Positions 15,613-62,539 of a DNA stretch of 64,000 bases are shown piece by piece. Made by a program: the position numbers and the translations under genes. The DNA comes from an archaeon (GTDB lineage: Archaea; Nanobdellota; Nanobdellia; Pacearchaeales; GW2011-AR1), in the NCBI GenBank assembly GCA_018697035.1, contig JABHSE010000004.1:259300-323299 (forward strand), written 5' to 3'. The notes beneath the pieces were generated by a model. The model had not been told where the DNA came from, did not search any database, and saw only the letters and a program-made list of their open reading frames with translations. How positions within the stretch are numbered: position 1 is the stretch's first letter; every line of letters begins with the position of its first letter.

Positions 15613-16182
15613 TTATAAGGAAGATATATCCCACCCAGAATTAACAAGGTGCTTAAACCAGTGTTTTTGGTGGAATTCTGGAAGTCCAACCAAATCAATC
15701 AACACAACAGAAATATTATTAGAGATGTAATCAAAACTTCCAGAAAACTTTAAATTAATCTTCCCATTATTATCTCTAATAACGTTCATTGTACCTCTTT
15801 CAAGAATAAATTCTCCAGAATTTTCTCGAGAAAGGTAATAATCGAGAACCTCTTTTTTAAAATGGAACCTTTGGAGATTATTACAAACATCATCTCCATT
15901 TTTTGACCACAAATCTGTAAATGGACCTTTTGGTCTTCCAGTTTTATCGGATTCTTTTCTTTCCAGTTTTTTTCTTATGGCCCTTTTTTTATTTTCTGTA
16001 TGGGTCTTTACCGCATGACAAATTGCACATAAGGCTTGTATATTATCTGGATCATTAGTTCCTCCATCCCATTTAGGCAAAATATGGTCAAAATGAGTTA
16101 TTTTGGGAGTCAATTCTCTTGGACAATCTGCACATTTATTATTTTGTCTTTCTAATATCTTATTTTTTGGTATTCCTGCCAT
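15613..16182 (-). CDS. HNH endonuclease
   Basis: CADCPRE..HFDHILPKWDGGTNDPDNIQALCAICH is an HNH motif. The ATG at 16182 lies 19 nt after TTTTTAAGG. Confidence 0.75.
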   Translation of the reverse strand: MAGIPKNKILERQNNKCADCPRELTPKITHFDHILPKWDGGTNDPDNIQALCAICHAVKTHTENKKRAIRKKLERKESDKTGRPKGPFTDLWSKNGDDVCNNLQRFHFKKEVLDYYLSRENSGEFILERGTMNVIRDNNGKINLKFSGSFDYISNNISVVLIDLVGLPEFHQKHWFKHLVNSGWDISSL

Positions 16183-16211
16183 AAAAAACCAGCGAATCAA
16201 ACCTTAAAAAT

Positions 16212-16995: not shown

Positions 16996-16999
16996 TTAA

Positions 17000-17070
17000 T
17001 CCCCCCACCCTGAATCGAACAGGGCCACAGCGGGCTACAACCGCCTGCTCTACCGATGAGCTATAGGGGG
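17000..17070 (-). tRNA. tRNA-Tyr: tRNA-Tyr (anticodon GTA)
   Basis: Hand fold: acceptor CCCCCTA/TGGGGGG with C1-G72, D arm GCTC-ATCGGTA-GAGC, anticodon arm GGCGG-TTGTAGC-CCGCT, T arm CCCTG-TTCGATT-CAGGG. No encoded CCA. TATA box ~25 nt upstream. Confidence 0.85.
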
Positions 17071-17116
17071 ACAAAAACAAAACTCTGAATAGCTTTATAA
17101 ATTTTTAGATAAGATG

Positions 17117-17250
17117 TCGGGGAACCCTGAATCGAACAGGACCACAGAAAGGGTTACCGAACACCTTGCTCGAATTTTTCCCAACGAAGTGATTAGAAAA
17201 ATTTTAGAGTAAAGTGTGAGTACGTTTGCTCTGCCATAAATTATAGGGGG
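17117..17250 (-). pseudogene. tRNA-Tyr-derived chimeric or degenerate element with a duplicated promoter
   Basis: It has the same promoter, the 5' acceptor CCCCCTATA and a near-identical T arm. The anticodon region is replaced by ~80 unrelated nt, and the 3' acceptor TTCCCCG cannot pair with the 5' end. Confidence 0.45.
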
Positions 17251-17291
17251 ACAAATACAAAACCTCTAGAAGCTTTATAAATTTTTAGATA

Positions 17292-17795
17292 TCATTTCCC
17301 AGCCCGCAAAACAATCCGCTTAATCGCCTTCATCCCCTCAGCACTAAACTCCGAAACAACAACCCCGAATAAAACCTCGTCCTCATCCTCCGCATGTTTC
17401 CTCAAAACATCAACAAACACCCTCATATCCTTAACCAAAGCCTCACGAACCCTCGCATCACTACCCGAATTAATAGCATCACCAATCTTCTTGACATGCC
17501 CCCTCAAATCCCTATGCTCAAGAAAAATCGTCTCAATCGGAATCGCAAAACCCTCAGCCTTCATCACCTCAAAAAGCTCCTCCTCCATCTTCTCATGCGC
17601 GGTCCAAAGCTCACCAACCTTCCAAAAAGTGTGCACTAAGTTAGAATAATTAATATTGCCGACCTCGTCCACTTCAGTGGATGCCATCTGGGCAGAAGGC
17701 ACACCCTTGGGTACCTCCTTCATAATAAAATCTAACTCTGACAATTCCATCTCGATAGCCTTATGTTCATCTCTCAATATCTTAACCGGATTCAT
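17292..17795 (-). CDS. hemerythrin-like (HHE cation-binding) domain protein carrying an in-frame repeat insertion
   Basis: RDEHKAIE, HEKMEEELF, LEHRDLRGH and HAEDEDEVLF are hemerythrin-like His/Glu motifs. Confidence 0.65.
   Translation of the reverse strand: MNPVKILRDEHKAIEMELSELDFIMKEVPKGVPSAQMASTEVDEVGNINYSNLVHTFWKVGELWTAHEKMEEELFEVMKAEGFAIPIETIFLEHRDLRGHVKKIGDAINSGSDARVREALVKDMRVFVDVLRKHAEDEDEVLFGVVVSEFSAEGMKAIKRIVLRAGK
17658..17716 (-). repeat. in-frame ~57-nt repeat element, copy H (encodes PKGVPSAQMASTEVDEVG)
   Basis: About 49 of 57 nt match 33093-33149 by hand alignment. Confidence 0.7.
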
Positions 17796-25638: not shown

Positions 25639-25655
25639 CAAAACTCTCCAATATC

Positions 25656-25710
25656 TTTTTTTTTGGCCAAACATAGGTATTCCAATATACTATATTACAC
25701 TATATACATC
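25656..25710 (+). repeat. conserved T-run/AT-rich module, copy 1 of 4
   Basis: TTTTTTTTTGGCCAAACATAGGTATTCCAATATACTATATTACACTATATACATC aligns with 35582-35636, 46823-46876 and 47244-47300. Confidence 0.7.
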
Positions 25711-31045: not shown

Positions 31046-32359
31046 TTACCTTCTAGACCGCGTCCGCCCCATAGCAACCCGCCTAGATCCCGAAACCTTC
31101 CCACCCCTCCGACTCCTAGATTCATTCCGCCTTCCACGAGCCCCACTCTTCCGCCTATCCCGACCTCGCCCCCGACCAATACCTTGCCTCCTAGGCCTAG
31201 GCTTAGCCTCGACACCCTCAGCAGTCTTAGCCGCAACCGAATGCCACTTATGCCCAGCATGCTCAACCTTCCGCTTAATCACCCGCTCAATCTGATTCAA
31301 ATAGTTCCTTTCCTCAGCCGAACAAAAAGAATAAGCAGTGCCACTCTCTCCAGCCCTCGCCGTCCGACCAATCCGATGCACATAATTCTCAGGCTCATTC
31401 GGCAAATCATAATTAACAACATGACTAATATTTGAAACATCAATCCCTCGAGCCGCAATATCAGTCGCAACCAAAACCCGAACAGCTCCACACTTAAATT
31501 CTCTCAATGCCTTCTCCCGCTGAAACTGAGATTTATTCCCATGAATCGCAGCAGCCTCGACACCATTCTTATTCAAAATCATCGCAACCTTATTCGCCTT
31601 ATGCTTCATCCCAACAAAAACCAAAACCCTATCCATATTCTGCTGCTTAATCAAATCCAACAACAGCTCCTCCTTATTCTTCCGATCCACAAAAAAAACA
31701 CACTGCTCAATCTTATCAACCGGAGTAGACTGCGGCGTAACCTCAACTCTAACCGGACTCTTCAAAAAATCATCAGCCAGCTCACTAATCTCCTTAGACA
31801 TTGTCGCCGAAAAAAACAAAACCTGCCTCTCCTCGCGGCATGTCTTAACAATCTTCTTAACATCCCGCAAAAACCCCATATCCAACATCCGATCCGCCTC
31901 ATCCAAAACCAAAAACTCCACATTCTTCAAACTAACTTTCCCTTGATTCATCAAATCAATCAATCTACCAGGAGTCGCAATCAAAACATCAACCCCGGCT
32001 CTCAAAGCTCTAATTTGCGGAACAATTCCTACACCACCATAAACAGCCAAATAATTAAAATTCAAAAACTTCCCATAACTCTTAAACTCTTCCACAATCT
32101 GAGCAGCAAGCTCTCGAGTCGGAGCCAAAACCAAAGCCCGAGGACCCTTCCCATTATATTTCTTCTCATTCAACTTCTGCAAAATAGGTACCCCAAACGC
32201 CGCAGTCTTCCCAGTCCCAGTCTGAGCAATGCCAATAACATCTTTCCCACTCAACAACAAAGGTATAGTCTTCTCCTGAATCGGAGTTGGCTCTATATAT
32301 CCCGCTTCTTTCAATGCCTTCAATATAGGCTCAGCAATTCTGAGTGTTTCAAATTCCAT
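31046..32359 (-). CDS. DEAD-box ATP-dependent RNA helicase with an Arg-rich C-terminal tail
   Basis: AQTGTGKT, PTRELA, DEAD, SAT and HRIGRTARAG motifs. The tail is RPRRQGIGRGRGRDRRK... Confidence 0.9.
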   Translation of the reverse strand: MEFETLRIAEPILKALKEAGYIEPTPIQEKTIPLLLSGKDVIGIAQTGTGKTAAFGVPILQKLNEKKYNGKGPRALVLAPTRELAAQIVEEFKSYGKFLNFNYLAVYGGVGIVPQIRALRAGVDVLIATPGRLIDLMNQGKVSLKNVEFLVLDEADRMLDMGFLRDVKKIVKTCREERQVLFFSATMSKEISELADDFLKSPVRVEVTPQSTPVDKIEQCVFFVDRKNKEELLLDLIKQQNMDRVLVFVGMKHKANKVAMILNKNGVEAAAIHGNKSQFQREKALREFKCGAVRVLVATDIAARGIDVSNISHVVNYDLPNEPENYVHRIGRTARAGESGTAYSFCSAEERNYLNQIERVIKRKVEHAGHKWHSVAAKTAEGVEAKPRPRRQGIGRGRGRDRRKSGARGRRNESRSRRGGKVSGSRRVAMGRTRSRR

Positions 32360-32422: not shown

Positions 32423-34210
32423 TTACTTCTTAACCTTCTCAAACAAAAACTCAAAATATTCCCCACCAATCGAGCTCGCCATCCTTTCAACAATCAACTC
32501 CGGAGTAGAACTAGCCAATCTTCCTAAAACAGGATTATGATTCACAATCAAATTAAAATCTTCATCAAGCCCACTAGCCTCAATCCCATCCACACGAGCA
32601 CCCTTAGGCAAGTTTTTCGCAATCTCTGCTCCCAAATGCGTAGCCAAAATAATAAAACAACCTTTCCGAACAAAATATTCAGCAGTCGCACCAATAATCT
32701 TCCCAGCAACACCAGGCTCCGTCACAGCCTCAATCTCATCAGCCAGAATCAGCGTGTTATTCCCAGATTTAATCCCAGACATCTGCGTAAGCAATGTCTC
32801 AAACGCCCCCTTAGAAGTACTGCCTTTAGTCTTAGCAAAATAATAAACCTCATCAAAAACCGGACACTCAAAAATACTCCCAACAACTGGCAATCCCATA
32901 CGAAACAACGAAACATTCTGCAACATATGCTCCAGCAAAGTAGTTTTCCCCCCTGAATTAGCCCCAGTCAAAATCGAACACCGAGCCTCATCGTCCAAAA
33001 CAAAACTAACCGGTTGAGCATCACGCAAAAACAGATTCAACCCATCTTCCAACAATAAGCTAGTACCATCTTTAGGCATAGTCATATCTTTACCGACCTT
33101 GTCCGTATCAGCGGATGCCATCTGGGCAGGAGGTACACCCTTGGGTGCCAAACCATCAACATACTTCGCAACCCCATTACAAAAGTCCTCGACAACTATC
33201 TCCGCCTCCAACCTCTGCAAAATCTTCGGTATACCTCTCAATTTCGAAGCATTCCGCTTAATCCTCTCCGCCACATCACTAAACTCATTAGCACTAGCAA
33301 TCCGAATCTGCGCCTCCAATTCCTTATAATCAACAGAAACAGGAACACCTAAATTAAAAATATGCTCCGGTACACCACTCCTCTCAATAGCCTCCCGAAC
33401 TAAAACCAAAATCTCGTCACTCATCTTCCCCTCACCAAGCATCTTCAGCATAACCTCACCTGAAATCATCATACCCTTAATTCCCTCACCAACCTCCTCA
33501 TTAATATCCTCAAGCGCAGCCTCGACCTCGCCCTCCGTTATAATCTTCCCCTCCTTATTCTCAAGCAATGCAAACGGCTCAATCAACAAATCCAAAACCT
33601 CTCGAAGCTCACAAGAAACATCCGCTCCATTAAGCAAAGCAAAATTCTCCCGCCAACCACTTAAGCTCTCCAAAAATCTCTCAAGATAAACATCCTCGAC
33701 GCTATTCAAAAAAACACTCTGCGGCAACCTTTCAAGCATTCCCCGAAAATCATCGCAATCGACAACCTGCACAACATCATATCGTTCCAACTCTGCAACA
33801 TCATTCTGACTAGTCAATAAAACGACTCCACAACTCAATTTATTTAATCTAACAAACGTAGACTCATCCTCAGTTACAACCACAACATCATATCGCGGCT
33901 TCCAACTAGCCCTCGGCTTACTCAATCTTCCCAACACGTCTCCCAATTCCCAATTCCCGACTCCCAACTTCTTAAAAAATTCTTGCCTCGCATAAACTTC
34001 TTTAAGAGAACTATCAATCCCAAAACAATTCCAGACATTTGAACTCTCCGAAAAAACAAACCCACCAGACAACTTTGCCAAAACCTTCCGATGGACAGCC
34101 TTAGCGTCTTTAGTTCGATAAATACTCCCAACCTTCCCGACACTACTCTTCCCAAGACTAAACGGACTCAAACTGTTCTCCGAAACAAACTTAACAAGCT
34201 CTCTTCTCAT
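32423..34210 (-). CDS. MutS-family ATPase (MutS domain V, MutS2-like, no Smr domain seen) carrying an in-frame repeat insertion
   Basis: TGANSGGKTTLLE Walker A and LILADEIEAVTEP Walker B. The start is moved to the ATG at 34210, 20 nt after the promoter element. The track ORF reads through that promoter. Confidence 0.7.
   Translation of the reverse strand: MRRELVKFVSENSLSPFSLGKSSVGKVGSIYRTKDAKAVHRKVLAKLSGGFVFSESSNVWNCFGIDSSLKEVYARQEFFKKLGVGNWELGDVLGRLSKPRASWKPRYDVVVVTEDESTFVRLNKLSCGVVLLTSQNDVAELERYDVVQVVDCDDFRGMLERLPQSVFLNSVEDVYLERFLESLSGWRENFALLNGADVSCELREVLDLLIEPFALLENKEGKIITEGEVEAALEDINEEVGEGIKGMMISGEVMLKMLGEGKMSDEILVLVREAIERSGVPEHIFNLGVPVSVDYKELEAQIRIASANEFSDVAERIKRNASKLRGIPKILQRLEAEIVVEDFCNGVAKYVDGLAPKGVPPAQMASADTDKVGKDMTMPKDGTSLLLEDGLNLFLRDAQPVSFVLDDEARCSILTGANSGGKTTLLEHMLQNVSLFRMGLPVVGSIFECPVFDEVYYFAKTKGSTSKGAFETLLTQMSGIKSGNNTLILADEIEAVTEPGVAGKIIGATAEYFVRKGCFIILATHLGAEIAKNLPKGARVDGIEASGLDEDFNLIVNHNPVLGRLASSTPELIVERMASSIGGEYFEFLFEKVKK
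33093..33149 (-). repeat. in-frame ~57-nt repeat element, copy M (encodes PKGVPPAQMASADTDKVG)
   Basis: See 17658-17716. Same orientation and reading frame. Confidence 0.7.
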
Positions 34211-35581: not shown

Positions 35582-35636
35582 TTTTTTTTTTCGCCAAAAC
35601 CTATATACTCCAATATGCTACATTAAACAACACACA
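35582..35636 (+). repeat. conserved T-run/AT-rich module, copy 2 of 4
   Basis: TTTTTTTTTTCGCCAAAACCTATATACTCCAATATGCTACATTAAACAACACACA. Confidence 0.7.
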
Positions 35637-35675
35637 TTAAAATCAAAAAAATTTCATAAAATCATATATTCCAAT

Positions 35676-37091
35676 CTATCTCCGAGCAACCCTATTCCGA
35701 GTATTCCTACCACCACCCCGAAACCCATCCTTAGACCCCCGAGCCGGCCTTCTACCATCACTACTCCCTCTATCTCGCCTAACACTTCTCTGCCCACCAG
35801 AACTAGCCCTTCCCCTACTTCCAACATTAGGACTCCGATCATTCCTAGGTCCTCTACTTCTCATTGGTCCCCGACCACCACTACTAGGTCTACCACGTCC
35901 CGAACTCCGACCTCCGAATCTAGAACCTCTTGTATCCTCAAGCATCTCAATCCTAACCCTCTCAAACCGCGGCGTCTCTGTCCTCTTAACCTCAAGTCCC
36001 TCATTCCGCCTCAACACATTCGAAAAATTATCATAATCCCTAGAAGCGACAATATTAACAGCCAACCCACTCTCTCCAGCCCTAGCAGTTCGCCCAATCC
36101 GATGAACATAATCCTTAGCGTCCTTCGGTAAATCATAATTATAAACATGGCTAACTCCCTTAATATCAAGCCCTCGAGCAGCAACATCAGTACAACAAAC
36201 AACACCAGCCATCCCTTCGCTAAACTCCTTCAAAACTCTAATCCGCTTCTTTTGATCCATTCCTCCATGAATCGCTCGAGCACTAACCTTATTCAACCTC
36301 AAATTCTTCTCAACAAAATCCGCATTCCTCCGAGTATTACAAAACACCATCGCAAGGCCATCGTGCTTCTGTTTCAACAAATGCACAAGCAAAGAAAACT
36401 TCTCCCCATCACGAACATCATAATAAATTTGCTTCAACTTAGAAGTATCAACATAATTCTCAACCGCAATCTCAATCGGAGCCTTCATATGCCTATCCGC
36501 AAAATCCGCCAAGTCCCCGCTAATCGTAGCCGAAAAAAGCAAAGTCTGCCTATTTTTAGGACATGCATCAACAATCTTAGAAACATCAAACTTAAATCCC
36601 ATATCCCACATCCGATCTGCCTCATCCAAAACCAAATAATCAACCTTACTCAAATCAACCATACGCTGTTTCAAATGATCTAACAATCTACCAGGCGTAG
36701 CAACAACAATATCCGCGTATACCAACTTCTTCTGCTGATGACTAATCGATACACCACCGTATACCGGCACAACTTCCAAATCTTTATAGTAAGCAAATTC
36801 CCTCAAAGCCTCAGCAACCTGCTCAGCCAACTCACGAGTCGGAGTTAAAATCAAACCCTGAATTCCCTTCCCCTTCTCGACATTCTTAATCATCCCAGAG
36901 CCAAAAGCCAACGTTTTCCCCGAACCAGTGGCAGAACCAGCGACGACATCCTTTCCTTCAAGAATCAACGGTATCGTTTTTTCCTGAATTTCTGAAGGCT
37001 TCGTAAACTTCTTATTCGAAATCACTTTCAAAACATGTTCACAAAGACCCAATTTTTCAAATTGTTCCATTCTAATCTTATAAATTTCCAA
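35676..37091 (-). CDS. DEAD-box ATP-dependent RNA helicase with an RG/S-rich C-terminal tail
   Basis: GSATGSGKT, PTRELA, DEAD, SAT and HRIGRTARAG motifs. The start could instead be the ATG at 37070 (MEQFEKLG). Confidence 0.9.
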   Translation of the reverse strand: MEIYKIRMEQFEKLGLCEHVLKVISNKKFTKPSEIQEKTIPLILEGKDVVAGSATGSGKTLAFGSGMIKNVEKGKGIQGLILTPTRELAEQVAEALREFAYYKDLEVVPVYGGVSISHQQKKLVYADIVVATPGRLLDHLKQRMVDLSKVDYLVLDEADRMWDMGFKFDVSKIVDACPKNRQTLLFSATISGDLADFADRHMKAPIEIAVENYVDTSKLKQIYYDVRDGEKFSLLVHLLKQKHDGLAMVFCNTRRNADFVEKNLRLNKVSARAIHGGMDQKKRIRVLKEFSEGMAGVVCCTDVAARGLDIKGVSHVYNYDLPKDAKDYVHRIGRTARAGESGLAVNIVASRDYDNFSNVLRRNEGLEVKRTETPRFERVRIEMLEDTRGSRFGGRSSGRGRPSSGGRGPMRSRGPRNDRSPNVGSRGRASSGGQRSVRRDRGSSDGRRPARGSKDGFRGGGRNTRNRVARR

Positions 37092-46815: not shown

Positions 46816-46822
46816 TCCCCTC

Positions 46823-46876
46823 TTTTTTTTTCGCAAAACCTATATATTCCAATATACTATATTACAATATATATAT
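46823..46876 (+). repeat. conserved T-run/AT-rich module, copy 3 of 4
   Basis: TTTTTTTTTCGCAAAACCTATATATTCCAATATACTATATTACAATATATATAT. Confidence 0.7.
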
Positions 46877-46900
46877 TGCCTTTCTAGTTTGTATTAATAA

Positions 46901-46934
46901 ATGCCTCCTAGGCAAAAGGTATACCCTTGGGTGT
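46901..46934. repeat. decayed intergenic copy of the in-frame repeat element
   Basis: ATGCCTCCTAGGCAAAAGGTATACCCTTGGGTGT versus ATGCCATCTGGGCAGGAGGTACACCCTTGGGTGC (33115-33148). Confidence 0.5.
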
Positions 46935-46946
46935 AAACAACAACAA

Positions 46947-47228
46947 TCACGCAGCAGCATAAACCGCATGCGCCCGATTACTAATCCGCCATCTCATCCT
47001 AGCCAAATAATCCTCACCCTTAGAATTCTTAGAAACCCGCACAACCAACCCCTTTCCTTCCAACCCCAACAACAACCTCTTAACAAACTCCTCATCCCTA
47101 GCCAACTCCCTCGCAACATCAACCGTAAAAACCAACCTCGGAAAAACCGAAAACAAATAACTCAAAATCTGTTCCGATATCCTCTCTATCTTAACATCAC
47201 TAATCTTTGGCATCCATTCCCAAAACAA
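46947..47228 (-). CDS. small winged-helix DNA-binding protein
   Basis: FTVDVARELARDEEFVKRLLLGLEGKGLVVRV is wHTH-like. Module copies 3 and 4 bracket the gene. Confidence 0.55.
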   Translation of the reverse strand: MFWEWMPKISDVKIERISEQILSYLFSVFPRLVFTVDVARELARDEEFVKRLLLGLEGKGLVVRVSKNSKGEDYLARMRWRISNRAHAVYAAA

Positions 47229-47243
47229 ACTCCCTTTATATTC

Positions 47244-47300
47244 TTTTTTTTTCTATCTCAACCTATATACTACAATATACCATATTAAACAATATACATA
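47244..47300 (+). repeat. conserved T-run/AT-rich module, copy 4 of 4 (no preceding hairpin or island)
   Basis: TTTTTTTTTCTATCTCAACCTATATACTACAATATACCATATTAAACAATATACATA. Confidence 0.65.
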
Positions 47301-61406: not shown

Positions 61407-61440
61407 ATCCGTGAGAATCCATGCAATCCGTGAATTAATT
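61407..61440. repeat. 34-nt block of three 9-nt ATCCGTG-containing units, copy A
   Basis: ATCCGTGAGAATCCATGCAATCCGTGAATTAATT. 32 of 34 nt match 61866-61899. Confidence 0.65.
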
Positions 61441-61833
61441 TCCCTTCTTCTCTAAATATTTCTTTAGCCCATTATCATAAATCTTCCTCTTAACCTGAGC
61501 TTTTTCTCCAAAATTTAAAAGCAAACCAACTTCCTTATCGGTCGCAGTCAAATAATTCAACAACTGATTCTCTTCCTTCCCAGAAAACTCAATAATAGCT
61601 TTAATCTCCACAATGATTTTTCCTTCAACAACAAAATCTGCAATATAATCTCCAACAACATCACCCTCGTAAAGAACCTTGATTGGAACCTGATTCTCGT
61701 ACAACAATCCCACCTTCCTAAATTCAATCATCAAAGCATTTTCATAAACTCTTTCCATAAACCCGTAACCCAGAGTATTATAAACAGAATAAAAGGCCTT
61801 AATTATCTTCTCACTAATCTCCTCATATTTCAT
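61435..61833 (-). CDS. GxxExxY family protein (PD-(D/E)XK nuclease-like fold)
   Basis: LGYGFMERVYENAL (GxxExxY) followed by ADFVVEGKIIVEIKA (D..E.K). Confidence 0.8.
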   Translation of the reverse strand: MKYEEISEKIIKAFYSVYNTLGYGFMERVYENALMIEFRKVGLLYENQVPIKVLYEGDVVGDYIADFVVEGKIIVEIKAIIEFSGKEENQLLNYLTATDKEVGLLLNFGEKAQVKRKIYDNGLKKYLEKKGN

Positions 61834-61865: not shown

Positions 61866-61899
61866 ATCCGTGAGAATCCGTGCAATCCGTGAACTAATT
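61866..61899. repeat. 34-nt block of three 9-nt units, copy B
   Basis: ATCCGTGAGAATCCGTGCAATCCGTGAACTAATT. Confidence 0.65.
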
Positions 61900-61902
61900 T
61901 TT

Positions 61903-62457
61903 CTACCCCCCAAAACACAAATCCAAATCCTCCTTCTTCAAAACCACATACCGAAAATCCCCCGACCGTAAATCCCGAGAGTACCCTCTCCCAACACTCG
62001 CCGTAATAACCTCGCTCCCCTGTCTCTTAATAACATCCATCGCCGGCAAAAAATCAGCATCCCCAGACAACAATATACAAACATCACACTTAGAATCAAC
62101 CAAACAAAAATCAATCATATCAGCCGCAATCATAACGTCAACTCCTTTCTCAATCCTAAGTTTCTTCCCCATACTATTAACAACCTTCAACTTCCGCGTA
62201 TTCACAACAACCCCTTTCTTCTTCAGCCCCGCCAAAAAAACCATATGCTTATAATAATTCTCCTCGCCCAGGTCTATATCCGGTACCGAATTATAATACC
62301 TCACCTCGACAAAATCCAAACCAAACCTATCACAAACCAACTTCCCAATTTTCTCAAAATCTAAACCCCTCGGCTTCCGTACAATCGATTTCACATTATG
62401 ATACCAATTATTCCCATCAACAAAAACTATTGCACTTCTCTTATTCTCCAAAGCCAT
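61903..62457 (-). CDS. NYN/LabA-like (DUF88) ribonuclease-fold protein
   Basis: AIVFVDGNNWYH .. VDVMIAADM .. ILLSGDADFLP. The start is ambiguous (62457, 62481 or the track's 62487). Confidence 0.7.
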   Translation of the reverse strand: MALENKRSAIVFVDGNNWYHNVKSIVRKPRGLDFEKIGKLVCDRFGLDFVEVRYYNSVPDIDLGEENYYKHMVFLAGLKKKGVVVNTRKLKVVNSMGKKLRIEKGVDVMIAADMIDFCLVDSKCDVCILLSGDADFLPAMDVIKRQGSEVITASVGRGYSRDLRSGDFRYVVLKKEDLDLCFGG

Positions 62458-62539
62458 TATAAAAAAGGTAAAGCCCGGCATTCCCAAAGGTCATACCGGG
62501 GACGTAATACATATCATAAACATCAAATATATTTAAACC

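What the first reader, a model, noticed from the sequence alone, without database searches (positions are those of the whole stretch)
17658..17716. A ~57-nt repeat inserted in frame into two unrelated proteins (RPE-like behaviour in an archaeon)
The hemerythrin-like gene (17658-17716) and the MutS-like gene (33093-33149) share a DNA segment that is ~49 of 57 nt identical by hand alignment: CCGACCTYGTCC...CAGYGGATGCCATCTGGGCAGRAGGYACACCCTTGGGTRCC. It is in the same orientation and frame in both, adding PKGVPSAQMASTEVDEVG and PKGVPPAQMASADTDKVG to otherwise unrelated proteins. A decayed copy lies in the intergenic region at 46901-46934. The core contains the inverted repeat CACCC-TT-GGGTG. Short palindromic elements that insert in frame into ORFs are known from Rickettsia (RPEs). 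I know of nothing equivalent described for archaea.
Basis: seen in the sequence. Interest (0 to 1): 0.7.

Follow-up and report, generated by a model that had tools for sequence, protein, structure and literature searches.

The report
In-frame mobile mini-element in DPANN archaea
A 57-base hairpin-bearing DNA element has copied itself into dozens of unrelated genes of a group of tiny DPANN archaea, including ribosomal protein genes, always in one orientation and one reading frame, so each host protein gains a harmless 19-residue loop; this resembles the Rickettsia palindromic elements and I found no report of it in archaea.

Summary
The window holds three copies of a 57-nt element: two lie in frame in the hemerythrin-like and MutS-like genes, and one decayed copy lies 12 nt after the stop codon of a small gene. 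Pattern scans and a covariance model found about 50 further insertion sites in about 35 unrelated gene families of Pacearchaeota/Woesearchaeota-type MAGs and metagenomes. Every genic copy is sense-oriented and in the frame that reads APKGVPPAQMASADADKVG. Orthologs and syntenic loci show empty sites. The insert is exactly 57 nt, has no target duplication and no terminal inverted repeats, and sits 5' of AA. A 5-bp hairpin covaries, while substitutions ignore codon position, so the constraint is on nucleic acid, not on the peptide. The element's sense strand is always on the G-rich chromosome strand. Best reading: a non-autonomous mobile element that behaves like the Rickettsia RPEs and is built like IS200/IS605-derived PATEs. 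It inserts strand-specifically and survives in genes only in the one benign frame. The mobilising enzyme is unknown. Copies at orthologous sites are far better conserved than their flanks, and this is unexplained. I found no description of it in archaea.

The parts
17658..17714 (-). Copy 1 of the 57-nt element, in frame in the hemerythrin-like gene. It encodes VPKGVPSAQMASTEVDEVG. The target AA is at 17656-17657.
   Evidence: Covariance-model hit 17656-17714, 80.3 bits. Orthologs of 149 aa lack it. AF2 loop with pLDDT about 55.
17668..17681 (-). Covarying hairpin of copy 1. The sense strand reads TCCAC-TGAA-GTGGA; the A-T pair replaces the consensus G-C pair.
33092..33148 (-). Copy 2 of the element, in frame in the MutS-like gene. 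It encodes APKGVPPAQMASADTDKVG. AA follows at 33090-33091.
   Evidence: Covariance-model hit, 87.3 bits. Absent from the other 119 homologs listed and from syntenic L063-L065.
33102..33115 (-). Hairpin of copy 2. The sense strand, TCCGC-TGAT-ACGGA, has a C.A mismatch; on the complementary strand this is a G.T wobble.
46878..46934 (-). Copy 3: a decayed, AT-drifted, non-coding insertion 12 nt after the TGA stop of the small ORF. It has the same chromosome orientation as the other copies and is followed by AA.
   Evidence: Covariance-model hit, 53.8 bits. Empty site in syntenic L064: TGA AGGTTGTCGCGC|AATATAC.
17292..17795 (-). Host gene 1: hemerythrin-like protein, 167 aa (Pfam PF01814).
32423..34210 (-). 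Host gene 2: MutS2-like ATPase. It is 595 aa as called in public records; the mechanical ORF extends to 34336. The insert lies about 40 residues upstream of the weak MutS_V match (residues 455-584 of the 637-aa ORF).
46947..47228 (-). Small ORF (93-aa mechanical ORF; the public gene call is 88 aa). It has no Pfam match, and a homologous gene is present in syntenic L064. Copy 3 lies in its 3' flank, in the same frame after the stop codon.

Best explanation
This is a family of 57-nt, non-autonomous mobile DNA elements. The sense consensus is GCACCCAAGGGTGTACCTCCTGCCCAGATGGCATCCGCTGACGCGGACAAGGTCGGC. The family colonises the genomes of a clade of DPANN archaea (Pacearchaeota/Woesearchaeota-type).

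Shown:
- The element is dispersed in about 35 unrelated gene families and at least one intergenic site.
- It is an insertion relative to orthologs.
- It adds exactly 57 nt, with no target-site duplication and no terminal inverted repeats, immediately 5' of AA.
- It carries a near-terminal palindrome at one end and, 10 nt from the other end, a 5-bp GC hairpin that is kept by compensatory changes.
- All copies on a contig point the same way, with the sense strand on the G-rich chromosome strand.
- Every genic copy is in the one frame that gives a Pro/Gly/Ala/Asp/Lys-rich 19-mer.
- Where it could be checked, this 19-mer falls in a low-confidence loop (hemerythrin), in a stretch of uL3 that aligned poorly to solved archaeal uL3 structures, or in Lys/Glu-rich terminal stretches of ribosomal proteins.

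Inferred:
- Insertion is specific for one DNA strand relative to replication, as in single-strand 'peel and paste' transposition of IS200/IS605 elements and their transposase-free PATE derivatives. The hairpin would then be the recognition structure.
- Protein-level selection removes every genic insertion that is not in the benign sense frame. As a result, only genes whose coding strand is the G-rich strand carry the element.
- Old copies decay as ordinary coding or non-coding sequence.
- The near-consensus state of many copies reflects recent activity, overwriting by other copies (gene conversion or re-insertion), or both.

The mobilising enzyme is unknown.
For: - Family size and in-frame rule. 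There are 46 distinct sites from strand-neutral DNA pattern scans, plus 4 more full-length model matches and 2 in-frame deletion derivatives. Every genic copy is in frame 1 and sense. Five of the six frames are stop-free in the consensus (my reading of the consensus).
- Sharp edges, no flank consensus, AA at positions 58-59 in 30 of 31 families.
- Empty versus filled sites: Dus-like L002 versus L038, exactly 57 nt. Window copy 3 versus L064. Hemerythrin and MutS orthologs. No copy in 65 kb of synteny.
- Hairpin covariation: 4 of 5 pairs have compensatory changes, and 0 of 500 shuffles reach the observed covariation score. L058 carries an entirely different stem, and L029 also keeps a stem by my reading.
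- No amino-acid-level constraint: 10 synonymous versus 37 non-synonymous substitution types, and 17:17:13 by codon position.
- Polarity: GC skew is positive on the element's sense strand in all loci of 5 kb or more. The mean of the skews of same-strand and opposite-strand genes is also positive in all of them (my calculation). The six further matches that belong to this family lie on the same strand as the first copy in their locus, and multiple copies on one contig point the same way.
- Loop location.
- Architecture matches the published definition of PATEs, including 52-bp terminal-only forms (PMC3119063).
- Strand-specific targeting of the lagging-strand template is established for IS608 and ISDra2 (PMC5027513 and PMC6006769, abstracts listed).
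Against: - No transposase or full-length parent element was found. A tblastn probe with an IS200 TnpA sequence recalled from memory found nothing in 525 kb. Pfam annotations of neighbouring genes show none.
- The conserved target is only 2 nt, against 4-5 nt in IS200/IS605.
- It is unresolved which strand is the active one. The AA/TT target side and the G.T-wobble asymmetry point to the antisense strand (8 of 9 non-Watson-Crick cells). The usual skew rule would put the sense strand on the lagging-strand template.
- Folding energies are not better than shuffled sequence (z -0.2 to -1.5).
- Copies at orthologous sites in lineages with only 45-80% identical host proteins are 85-100% identical (68% for the length variant L029). 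In most pairs 19-20 of 20 third codon positions match, against 27-78% in the flanks of the diverged pairs. Simple neutral decay of a selfish insert does not predict this.
- Intergenic copies are very rare (1 of about 50). Random insertion followed by a 1-in-6 frame filter would predict many more.
Confidence: 0.6

Rival explanations
1. The element is a domesticated or primarily functional cis-acting nucleic-acid signal, not mere selfish DNA. It could be a polar chromosome signal read on one strand during replication, recombination or segregation. Or it could be an mRNA element that ties many translation-related genes into one post-transcriptional regulon. Selection would then hold its nucleotide sequence constant, and the open frame would only be the price of sitting inside genes.
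For: In most orthologous pairs 19-20 of 20 third codon positions of the element match, against 27-78% in the flanks of the diverged pairs. Substitutions ignore codon position. The hairpin is kept by compensation, apparently also in resident copies: TatD copies at the same site have different stems, and L031 versus L059 differ by a compensatory double change where the 180 nt upstream are 99% identical. Polarity with strand skew is strict. Many hosts are ribosomal or translation proteins. The only non-coding copy in the window has decayed.
Against: Presence is patchy. The three window sites are empty in three relatives. Several genic copies are clearly decaying (L023:1194, L046:3895 and hemerythrin P0002). 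Copy number is low, about 1 per 20 kb in the window. No Rfam family matches even at E up to 10. Thermodynamic stability is unremarkable. The high conservation could instead come from overwriting by other copies, and the search pattern fixed 22 of the 57 positions.
Confidence: 0.2
2. The 19-residue peptide is the functional unit. It would be a short linear motif, such as an interaction, modification or degradation tag, that spreads between proteins on a mobile DNA cassette.
For: Use of a single reading frame is absolute at about 50 sites, although five of the six frames are open (frame count is my reading of the consensus). The peptide sits in exposed or disordered positions.
Against: There is no excess of synonymous change: 21% of substitution types are synonymous, against 26% expected with no constraint, and the distribution over codon positions is flat. 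Compensatory stem changes alter residues freely (A to D with A to S, A to T with A to V). L029 and L058 replace the middle of the peptide altogether. Decayed copies keep only the frame.
Confidence: 0.05
3. The insert is removed or skipped during expression. It would be an archaeal bulge-helix-bulge intron in the mRNA, or a translational-bypass ('byp', T4 gene 60-like) element, so that host proteins are made without it.
For: It is a short GC-rich hairpin-bearing insert inside coding regions, which superficially resembles the bypass elements discussed in 10.1101/2022.08.31.505936 and PMC8211752.
Against: Removal or skipping would impose no reading-frame rule and no need for a stop-free multiple of 3, yet every genic copy is 57 nt (or an in-frame variant) in one frame. 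Decayed copies continue to evolve as open coding sequence. Flanking exons differ at every site, so they cannot supply the exon-intron pairing of a BHB motif (BHB requirements from my own knowledge). Matching take-off and landing codons are not present in frame (my reading of the sequence).
Confidence: 0.03
4. Artefact: the shared segment comes from metagenome mis-assembly or contamination, not from real genomes.
For: One contig, L019, is an evident chimera that joins two host genes at the element. Three ortholog pairs change identity abruptly at the element.
Against: The same sites recur in independent assemblies from different projects and assemblers. Copies differ by in-frame substitutions, compensatory changes and decay. 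The hemerythrin protein with the insert was read on 23 contigs.
Confidence: 0.01

Closest known systems
Rickettsia palindromic elements (RPE), as summarised in PMC10969869
   Same: A short palindrome-bearing repeat dispersed in unrelated genes. It is inserted in frame, so each host protein gains a conserved extra peptide that is compatible with its fold. Non-coding copies also occur. It is found in reduced genomes of host-dependent organisms.
   Different: The element is 57 nt, against about 100-150 bp for RPEs. The hosts are archaeal (DPANN), not alphaproteobacterial. Orientation follows the chromosome strand strictly, and almost all detected copies are genic. A defined AA target without duplication is shown here. 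No sequence relationship to RPEs was tested.
PATEs (palindrome-associated transposable elements), including 52-bp terminal-only derivatives of IS605/IS1341-type transposons in Haloquadratum (PMC3119063)
   Same: Archaeal and transposase-free. No terminal inverted repeats and no target duplication. Near-terminal palindromes. A short conserved flanking oligonucleotide. Similar size to the 52-bp forms.
   Different: PATEs are not reported there as in-frame parts of genes. No IS200/IS605 parent or TnpA was found here. The target is only 2 nt. The termini were not shown to match any IS.
IS200/IS605 single-strand 'peel and paste' transposition (IS608, ISDra2; PMC5027513, PMC3201880, PMC6006769)
   Same: Strand-specific orientation relative to replication. 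Subterminal hairpins as recognition structures. Insertion next to a short target without duplication.
   Different: No transposase gene. The element is roughly twenty to thirty times shorter than a typical IS of this family (from my own knowledge of IS sizes). The conserved target dinucleotide lies on the side that would make the antisense strand the 'top' strand, which conflicts with the usual skew rule.
REP/BIME elements with RAYT transposases, and intragenic ERIC/RU small mobile sequences of enterobacteria (PMC3733652, PMC2759123)
   Same: Short GC-rich stem-loop repeats with compensatory stem changes. Some enterobacterial small repeats occur inside genes and carry open frames.
   Different: REPs are extragenic and carry a GTAG or CGTC tag, which is absent here (my reading of the consensus). 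No RAYT was found.
Translational-bypass inserts (T4 gene 60 type; mitochondrial 'byps')
   Same: Short mobile GC-rich inserts inside coding sequence.
   Different: Those are skipped by the ribosome and need not be open or in frame. This element is always open and in frame, and it decays as coding sequence.

Membership tests
RPE-like in-frame intragenic repeat (behavioural class) | The same nucleotide repeat occurs in several unrelated protein-coding genes. | tested here: met
   About 31 host families from the DNA scans, plus IscU, L24, S17 and L13 from the peptide search.
RPE-like in-frame intragenic repeat (behavioural class) | The repeat is inserted in frame and is absent from orthologs. | tested here: met
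RPE-like in-frame intragenic repeat (behavioural class) | The extra peptide lies at an exposed or loop position compatible with the fold. | tested here: met
   The hemerythrin insert falls between helices 1 and 2 at pLDDT about 55. In uL3, the stretch around the insert (residues about 96-135) is unaligned in the best match to a solved archaeal structure and gap-rich in the second. Only two hosts were examined.
RPE (Rickettsia families RPE-1 to RPE-10) | Sequence homology to a Rickettsia RPE family. | not tested
   No Rickettsia sequences were compared. The size (57 nt against about 100-150 bp) and the host domain differ, so I do not file it as an RPE.
Classical MITE | Terminal inverted repeats. 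| tested here: not met
   The ends, GCACCCAAG... and ...GGTCGGC, are not inverted copies of each other (my reading of the consensus).
Classical MITE | Target-site duplication. | tested here: not met
   Empty and filled pairs differ by exactly the 57 nt. Flanks have no consensus and no repeat.
PATE / IS200-IS605-derived miniature element | No terminal inverted repeats, no target duplication, too short to encode a transposase. | tested here: met
   Definition from PMC3119063.
PATE / IS200-IS605-derived miniature element | Palindromes close to both termini. | tested here: met
   CACCC-AA-GGGTG occupies positions 2-13. TCCGC-NNNN-GCGGA occupies positions 34-47, 10 nt from the other end. Only the second palindrome varies enough to show covariation.
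PATE / IS200-IS605-derived miniature element | A conserved short target oligonucleotide (4-5 nt) abuts one end. | tested here: inconclusive
   Only AA (TT on the other strand) is conserved, in 30 of 31 families. The next positions carry less than 0.6 bit.
PATE / IS200-IS605-derived miniature element | Orientation is tied to the replication strand. | tested here: met
   The sense strand is on the G-rich strand in all loci. Copies on one contig point the same way. The replication direction itself is inferred from skew, not known.
PATE / IS200-IS605-derived miniature element | An IS200/IS605 transposon or TnpA (Y1 HUH) in the same genomes shares the termini. | tested here: inconclusive
   None was seen in 525 kb by tblastn with a probe recalled from memory, or in the Pfam annotation of neighbouring genes. 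Whole genomes could not be scanned.
REP/RAYT | A GTAG or CGTC tag at one end, an extragenic location, and an associated RAYT gene. | tested here: not met
   No such tag is in the consensus. Copies are genic. No RAYT was seen, though the search was limited.
Archaeal BHB intron | A bulge-helix-bulge motif formed with the flanking exon; no reading-frame constraint. | tested here: not met
   Flanks are unrelated between sites. The frame rule is strict, and decayed copies stay open.
Known RNA families (Rfam 15) | A match to a curated covariance model. | tested here: not met
   No hit at gathering score in the whole window other than the tRNA family itself. No hit at E up to 10 on copy 2.

The most novel reading that the evidence does not exclude
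The element is more than tolerated junk. It would be a strand-polar signal whose nucleotide sequence is under selection, embedded in genes whose coding strand is the G-rich strand. These include core ribosomal protein genes of ultra-small DPANN genomes. It would be kept near-identical across lineages whose host proteins have diverged to 45-60% identity. It would then be either a new kind of chromosome or mRNA-level cis-signal that travels as a coding-neutral cassette, or a new class of single-strand-mobilised element with an unknown archaeal enzyme that persists by overwriting its own resident copies.
Probability: 0.2. Interest if true: 0.85.

Novelty: new variant of a known kind. Interest (0 to 1): 0.66.

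Why it matters
If this holds, it is an archaeal counterpart of the Rickettsia palindromic elements. It occurs in organisms with some of the smallest and least IS-ridden genomes known. A mobile element there writes the same 19 residues into ribosomal proteins (uL3, uL22, uL24, uS17, uL13 and a probable stalk protein), ABCE1, IscU, GatE-like, CCA-adding enzyme and TatD.

It would matter in four ways:
- It shows how new loops and tails can enter essential proteins.
- Its strict polarity marks the replication strand in genomes whose origins are unmapped.
- It offers a compact substrate (57 nt, one covarying hairpin, an AA target) for finding an unknown archaeal single-strand DNA transposition or conversion activity.
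- As a practical point, it breaks metagenome assemblies and inflates apparent protein divergence in DPANN phylogenomic markers.

Tried and rejected
- Rfam: nothing at gathering score in the window apart from the tRNA family itself, and nothing at E up to 10 on copy 2.
- Viral contigs: no copy of the element.
- Peptide search: I queried with all six frame translations joined together. This is weak support for frame exclusivity.
- Contig look-up for the 595-aa MutS-like protein: not on record.
- IS200 TnpA tblastn probe, written from memory: no hit in 525 kb. This is a weak negative.
- Diversity-generating retroelement variable or template repeat: rejected. Differences between copies are not confined to adenines, and no reverse transcriptase appears in the Pfam annotation of neighbouring genes.
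- Antisense small RNA made from copy 3 using the adjacent AT-rich D2 motif as promoter: not supported. The syntenic relative has the D2-like AT-rich sequence without the element, so copy 3 is simply an insertion next to it.
- BHB intron and ribosomal bypass: rejected on the frame rule and on the decay of copies as coding sequence.
- Three-way-junction closing helix (positions 15-18 with 50-53): I entered the columns wrongly as 17-20 with 50-53, and that helix scored 54% paired. The intended helix was not properly tested. By inspection, the GTC-to-GGA variants at positions 52-54 are not compensated.
- Thermodynamic stability: not different from shuffled sequence.

Full report
**Observation.** The repeat finder groups 17656-17715, 33090-33149 and 46876-46935 into one family at 100/85/63% identity. 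Degenerate cores of 34 and 22 nt match 2 and 3 times in the window, against 0.00 expected in shuffles. Both host genes are on the minus strand, and the repeat is read in the same frame in both. Pfam identifies a hemerythrin-domain protein and gives a weak MutS domain V match for the second host.

**The family outside the window.** I scanned one genome per species of bacteria and archaea with a 22-nt degenerate core, on both strands. This gave 12 true hits, all in DPANN MAGs, and one chance hit in a proteobacterial bin: an unnamed 'archaeon' MAG (CSMAG_2291) with 6 hits, another (SI037S2_bin49) with 3, a Pacearchaeota MAG, a Woesearchaeota MAG and one further MAG. The metagenome scan gave 42 loci, of which one was a chance match.
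- Together with the window these are 57 copies at 46 distinct sites.
- After masking the insert, the host ORFs fall into about 31 unrelated families. By my reading of their sequences these include uL3, uL22, a probable ribosomal stalk protein, ABCE1, a GatE-like protein, a CCA-adding enzyme, TatD, a Dus-like TIM-barrel protein, GTPases and a surface protein of more than 2,600 aa.
- A protein search added IscU, uL24, uS17 and uL13.
- A covariance model built from 39 distinct copies found four more full-length copies and two in-frame deletion derivatives in the fetched loci. It also gave one match to a second, shorter family and one weak hit that is probably chance.

**The frame and orientation rule.** The DNA pattern search is blind to strand and frame. 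Yet every genic copy lies in a long ORF, in sense orientation, in the frame that reads APKGVPPAQMASADADKVG. By my reading of the consensus, five of its six frames have no stop codon, so this is not a trivial consequence of stop avoidance.

**It is an insertion.**
- Most hemerythrin orthologs are 149 aa and lack the segment. A few carry degenerate inserts in the same loop.
- Of 120 MutS-like homologs, only the window's own protein has it.
- The syntenic regions of three relatives (65 kb, filters off) contain no copy.

Two pairs give nucleotide-level empty sites.
- The Dus-like gene of L002 reads TCTGGG|AACGTT. Its ortholog in L038 reads TCTGGC[57 nt]AATGTT.
- Downstream of the small ORF, the relative L064 reads TGA AGGTTGTCGCGC|AATATAC. 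The window reads TGA TTGTTGTTGTTT[57 nt]AATATAT.

So the element is 57 nt, makes no target duplication, has no terminal inverted repeats and lands 5' of AA. It can also land in non-coding DNA, in the same chromosome orientation. The MutS and hemerythrin loops vary too much in length to fix their boundaries to the base.

**Constraint is on nucleic acid, not on the peptide.**
- Among 39 distinct copies there are 10 synonymous and 37 non-synonymous substitution types. That is 21% synonymous, against 26% expected without constraint. They are spread 17:17:13 over the three codon positions.
- Variation follows the anatomy instead. There is an almost invariant 5' arm (partly fixed by my search pattern), then a hairpin at positions 34-38/43-47, then a conserved tail.
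- In the hairpin, 4 of 5 pairs show compensatory double changes. The cells with changes on both sides and the covariation score exceed all 500 shuffles, and all slid controls.
- L058 carries an entirely different stem (CCTGA/TCAGG). By my reading, L029 keeps a stem around a much longer loop.
- Eight of the nine non-Watson-Crick cells are C.A in the sense strand, which is G.U or G.T in the complement. This hints that the complementary strand is the folded one. However, the changes involved (Ala to Thr, Asp to Asn) are also conservative at the protein level, so I treat it as a hint only.
- Predicted folding energies are not better than shuffled sequence.

**Polarity.**
- GC skew across the window is strongly negative on the + strand in every 2-kb block. 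It is negative in genes of both orientations.
- In every locus of at least 5 kb, the element's sense strand is the G-rich strand. The average of the skews of same-strand and opposite-strand genes, which removes the gene-orientation effect, is also positive in all of them (my calculation).
- Copies that share a contig always point the same way: three in the window, four on one 285-kb contig, and pairs on several others.
- Coding bases are split about evenly between the two strands in the window (27.8 versus 26.3 kb). The restriction to genes of one strand is therefore a property of the element, not of gene distribution.

**Location in the proteins.** An AlphaFold model of the hemerythrin-like protein (pTM 0.75) places the insert between helices 1 and 2. 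There pLDDT falls to about 55, and below 50 at residues 40-45. In uL3, the stretch around the insert is left unaligned in the best match to a solved archaeal structure and is gap-rich in the second.

**An unexplained feature.** Copies at orthologous sites are 85-100% identical; the length variant L029 is the exception at 68%. In most pairs 19-20 of 20 third codon positions match. In the diverged pairs the flanking codons match at only 27-78% of third positions, and the host proteins are as little as 45-60% identical, as in TatD.
- Yet clearly decaying copies also exist, and the window's non-coding copy has drifted to 39% GC.
- TatD copies at the same site belong to different hairpin subfamilies.
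- L031 and L059, which are 99% identical over the 180 nt upstream, differ in the element by a compensatory double transversion plus other changes.
- Three of five ortholog pairs change identity abruptly at the element. One contig, L019, is an outright chimera of two host genes joined at the element.
- These facts fit overwriting of resident copies by other copies (conversion or re-insertion), recombination at the element, or assembly switching between strains. I cannot separate these possibilities with the tools available here.

**Mechanism.** The best-supported account is a non-autonomous mobile element that inserts in a strand-specific way. In genes it survives only in the one frame that yields a flexible, hydrophilic peptide.
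- Its architecture matches the published definition of archaeal PATEs, which include 52-bp terminal-only derivatives of IS605-type transposons. The shared features are no inverted termini, no duplication, near-terminal palindromes, a short flanking target and a length of 57 nt.
- Strand-specific insertion at the replication fork is established for IS608 and ISDra2 (PMC5027513 and PMC6006769, from the abstracts listed).
- Against membership: no transposase or parent element was found, the target is only 2 nt, and the active strand is ambiguous.
- The behaviour is that of Rickettsia palindromic elements as summarised in PMC10969869.

**Literature.** Full-text searches that combined archaea, DPANN, Pacearchaeota or Woesearchaeota with in-frame, palindromic, MITE or repeat-element terms found no description of such an element in archaea. 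The library holds only open-access papers, so this is absence of evidence.

**Verdict.** I file the element as a new variant of a known kind. It behaves like an RPE and is built like a PATE, but it is not shown to be a member of either family.

Noticed in passing
window 1-64000 (whole window); also L001-L058: Very strong strand compositional asymmetry. GC skew on the + strand is -0.04 to -0.56 in every 2-kb block. It keeps the same sign in genes of both orientations: in the element's sense orientation it is +0.47 for same-strand genes and +0.22 for opposite-strand genes. Related DPANN loci show the same pattern. The strand-specific component (about 0.35 in the window) seems large to me, from my own knowledge of typical replication skews.
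   Followed up: partly
window 25654-25709, 35582-35637, 46821-46876, 47244-47299; L001:3714, L007:1478; a related AT-rich sequence downstream of the small ORF in L064: A 56-nt AT-rich intergenic motif (T9 run, then AAACCTATATAYTCCAATATACTATATTA). It occurs four times in the window, always in the same orientation, and is conserved in related genomes. It looks like a terminator-plus-promoter cassette. Copy 3 of the element abuts one of these motifs by insertion.
   Followed up: partly
L011:3572-3591 (also L042 and L056), L036:367-386, L049:1254-1290; protein P0032: A second, shorter in-frame repeat family. It reads GCGCCTCSGCAAGTACCCTC-NNNN-GAGGGCAA and encodes APPQVPS(E/D)EGK. It also has a 5-bp GC hairpin with a 4-nt loop and ends in GGCAA. 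It is not present in the window beyond chance level.
   Followed up: partly
L040/L043, L022/L038, L031/L059; L019: Nucleotide identity between orthologous contigs jumps at the element, for example from 100% upstream to about 80% downstream. L019 joins the upstream half of a Dus-like gene to the downstream half of TatD at the element. This means either recombination junctions or metagenome assembly chimeras at the 57-mer.
   Followed up: partly
window 46935-46949: Copy 3 is in the same reading frame as the small ORF, directly after its TGA stop (...AVYAAA*LLLFTPKGIPFA*). The syntenic relative ends at the same TGA without the element, so the shared frame is probably a coincidence.
   Followed up: yes
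hemerythrin orthologs P0005, P0008, P0011, P0013 (alignment A2): Several orthologs carry a different insert of similar length in the same helix 1-2 loop (GDSGCP(T/Y)S...G). P0002 carries what looks like a decayed copy of the element (KEGAPFSQVAVAYDGRQG). The loop appears to be a repeated landing or expansion site.
   Followed up: no
window 31341-31428 / 36067-36154 and 31800-31990 / 36523-36713: Direct repeats D1 and D4 fall within two minus-strand ORFs, 31046-32359 and 35676-37091, that flank the MutS-like gene. The corresponding genes in the syntenic loci are annotated as DEAD-box helicases, so these repeats are probably ordinary paralogy.
   Followed up: no
window 17062-17118 and 17242-17298: A 57-nt direct repeat (82% identical) containing TTTATAAATTTTTAGATA. 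One copy lies just upstream of tRNA-Tyr (16999-17071, minus strand). The other lies at the 3' end of the hemerythrin-like gene. It may be a duplicated promoter.
   Followed up: no
window 61407-61456 and 61866-61915: A 50-nt repeat that itself contains three ATCCGTG(A) units. The two copies overlap the stop-proximal ends of two adjacent minus-strand ORFs (61435-61833 and 61903-62487). Its role is unknown.
   Followed up: no
window 15613-16200 (-): An HNH endonuclease gene (PF01844, PF14279) lies about 1.1 kb downstream of the hemerythrin-like gene, beyond tRNA-Tyr. No link to the element was found.
   Followed up: no
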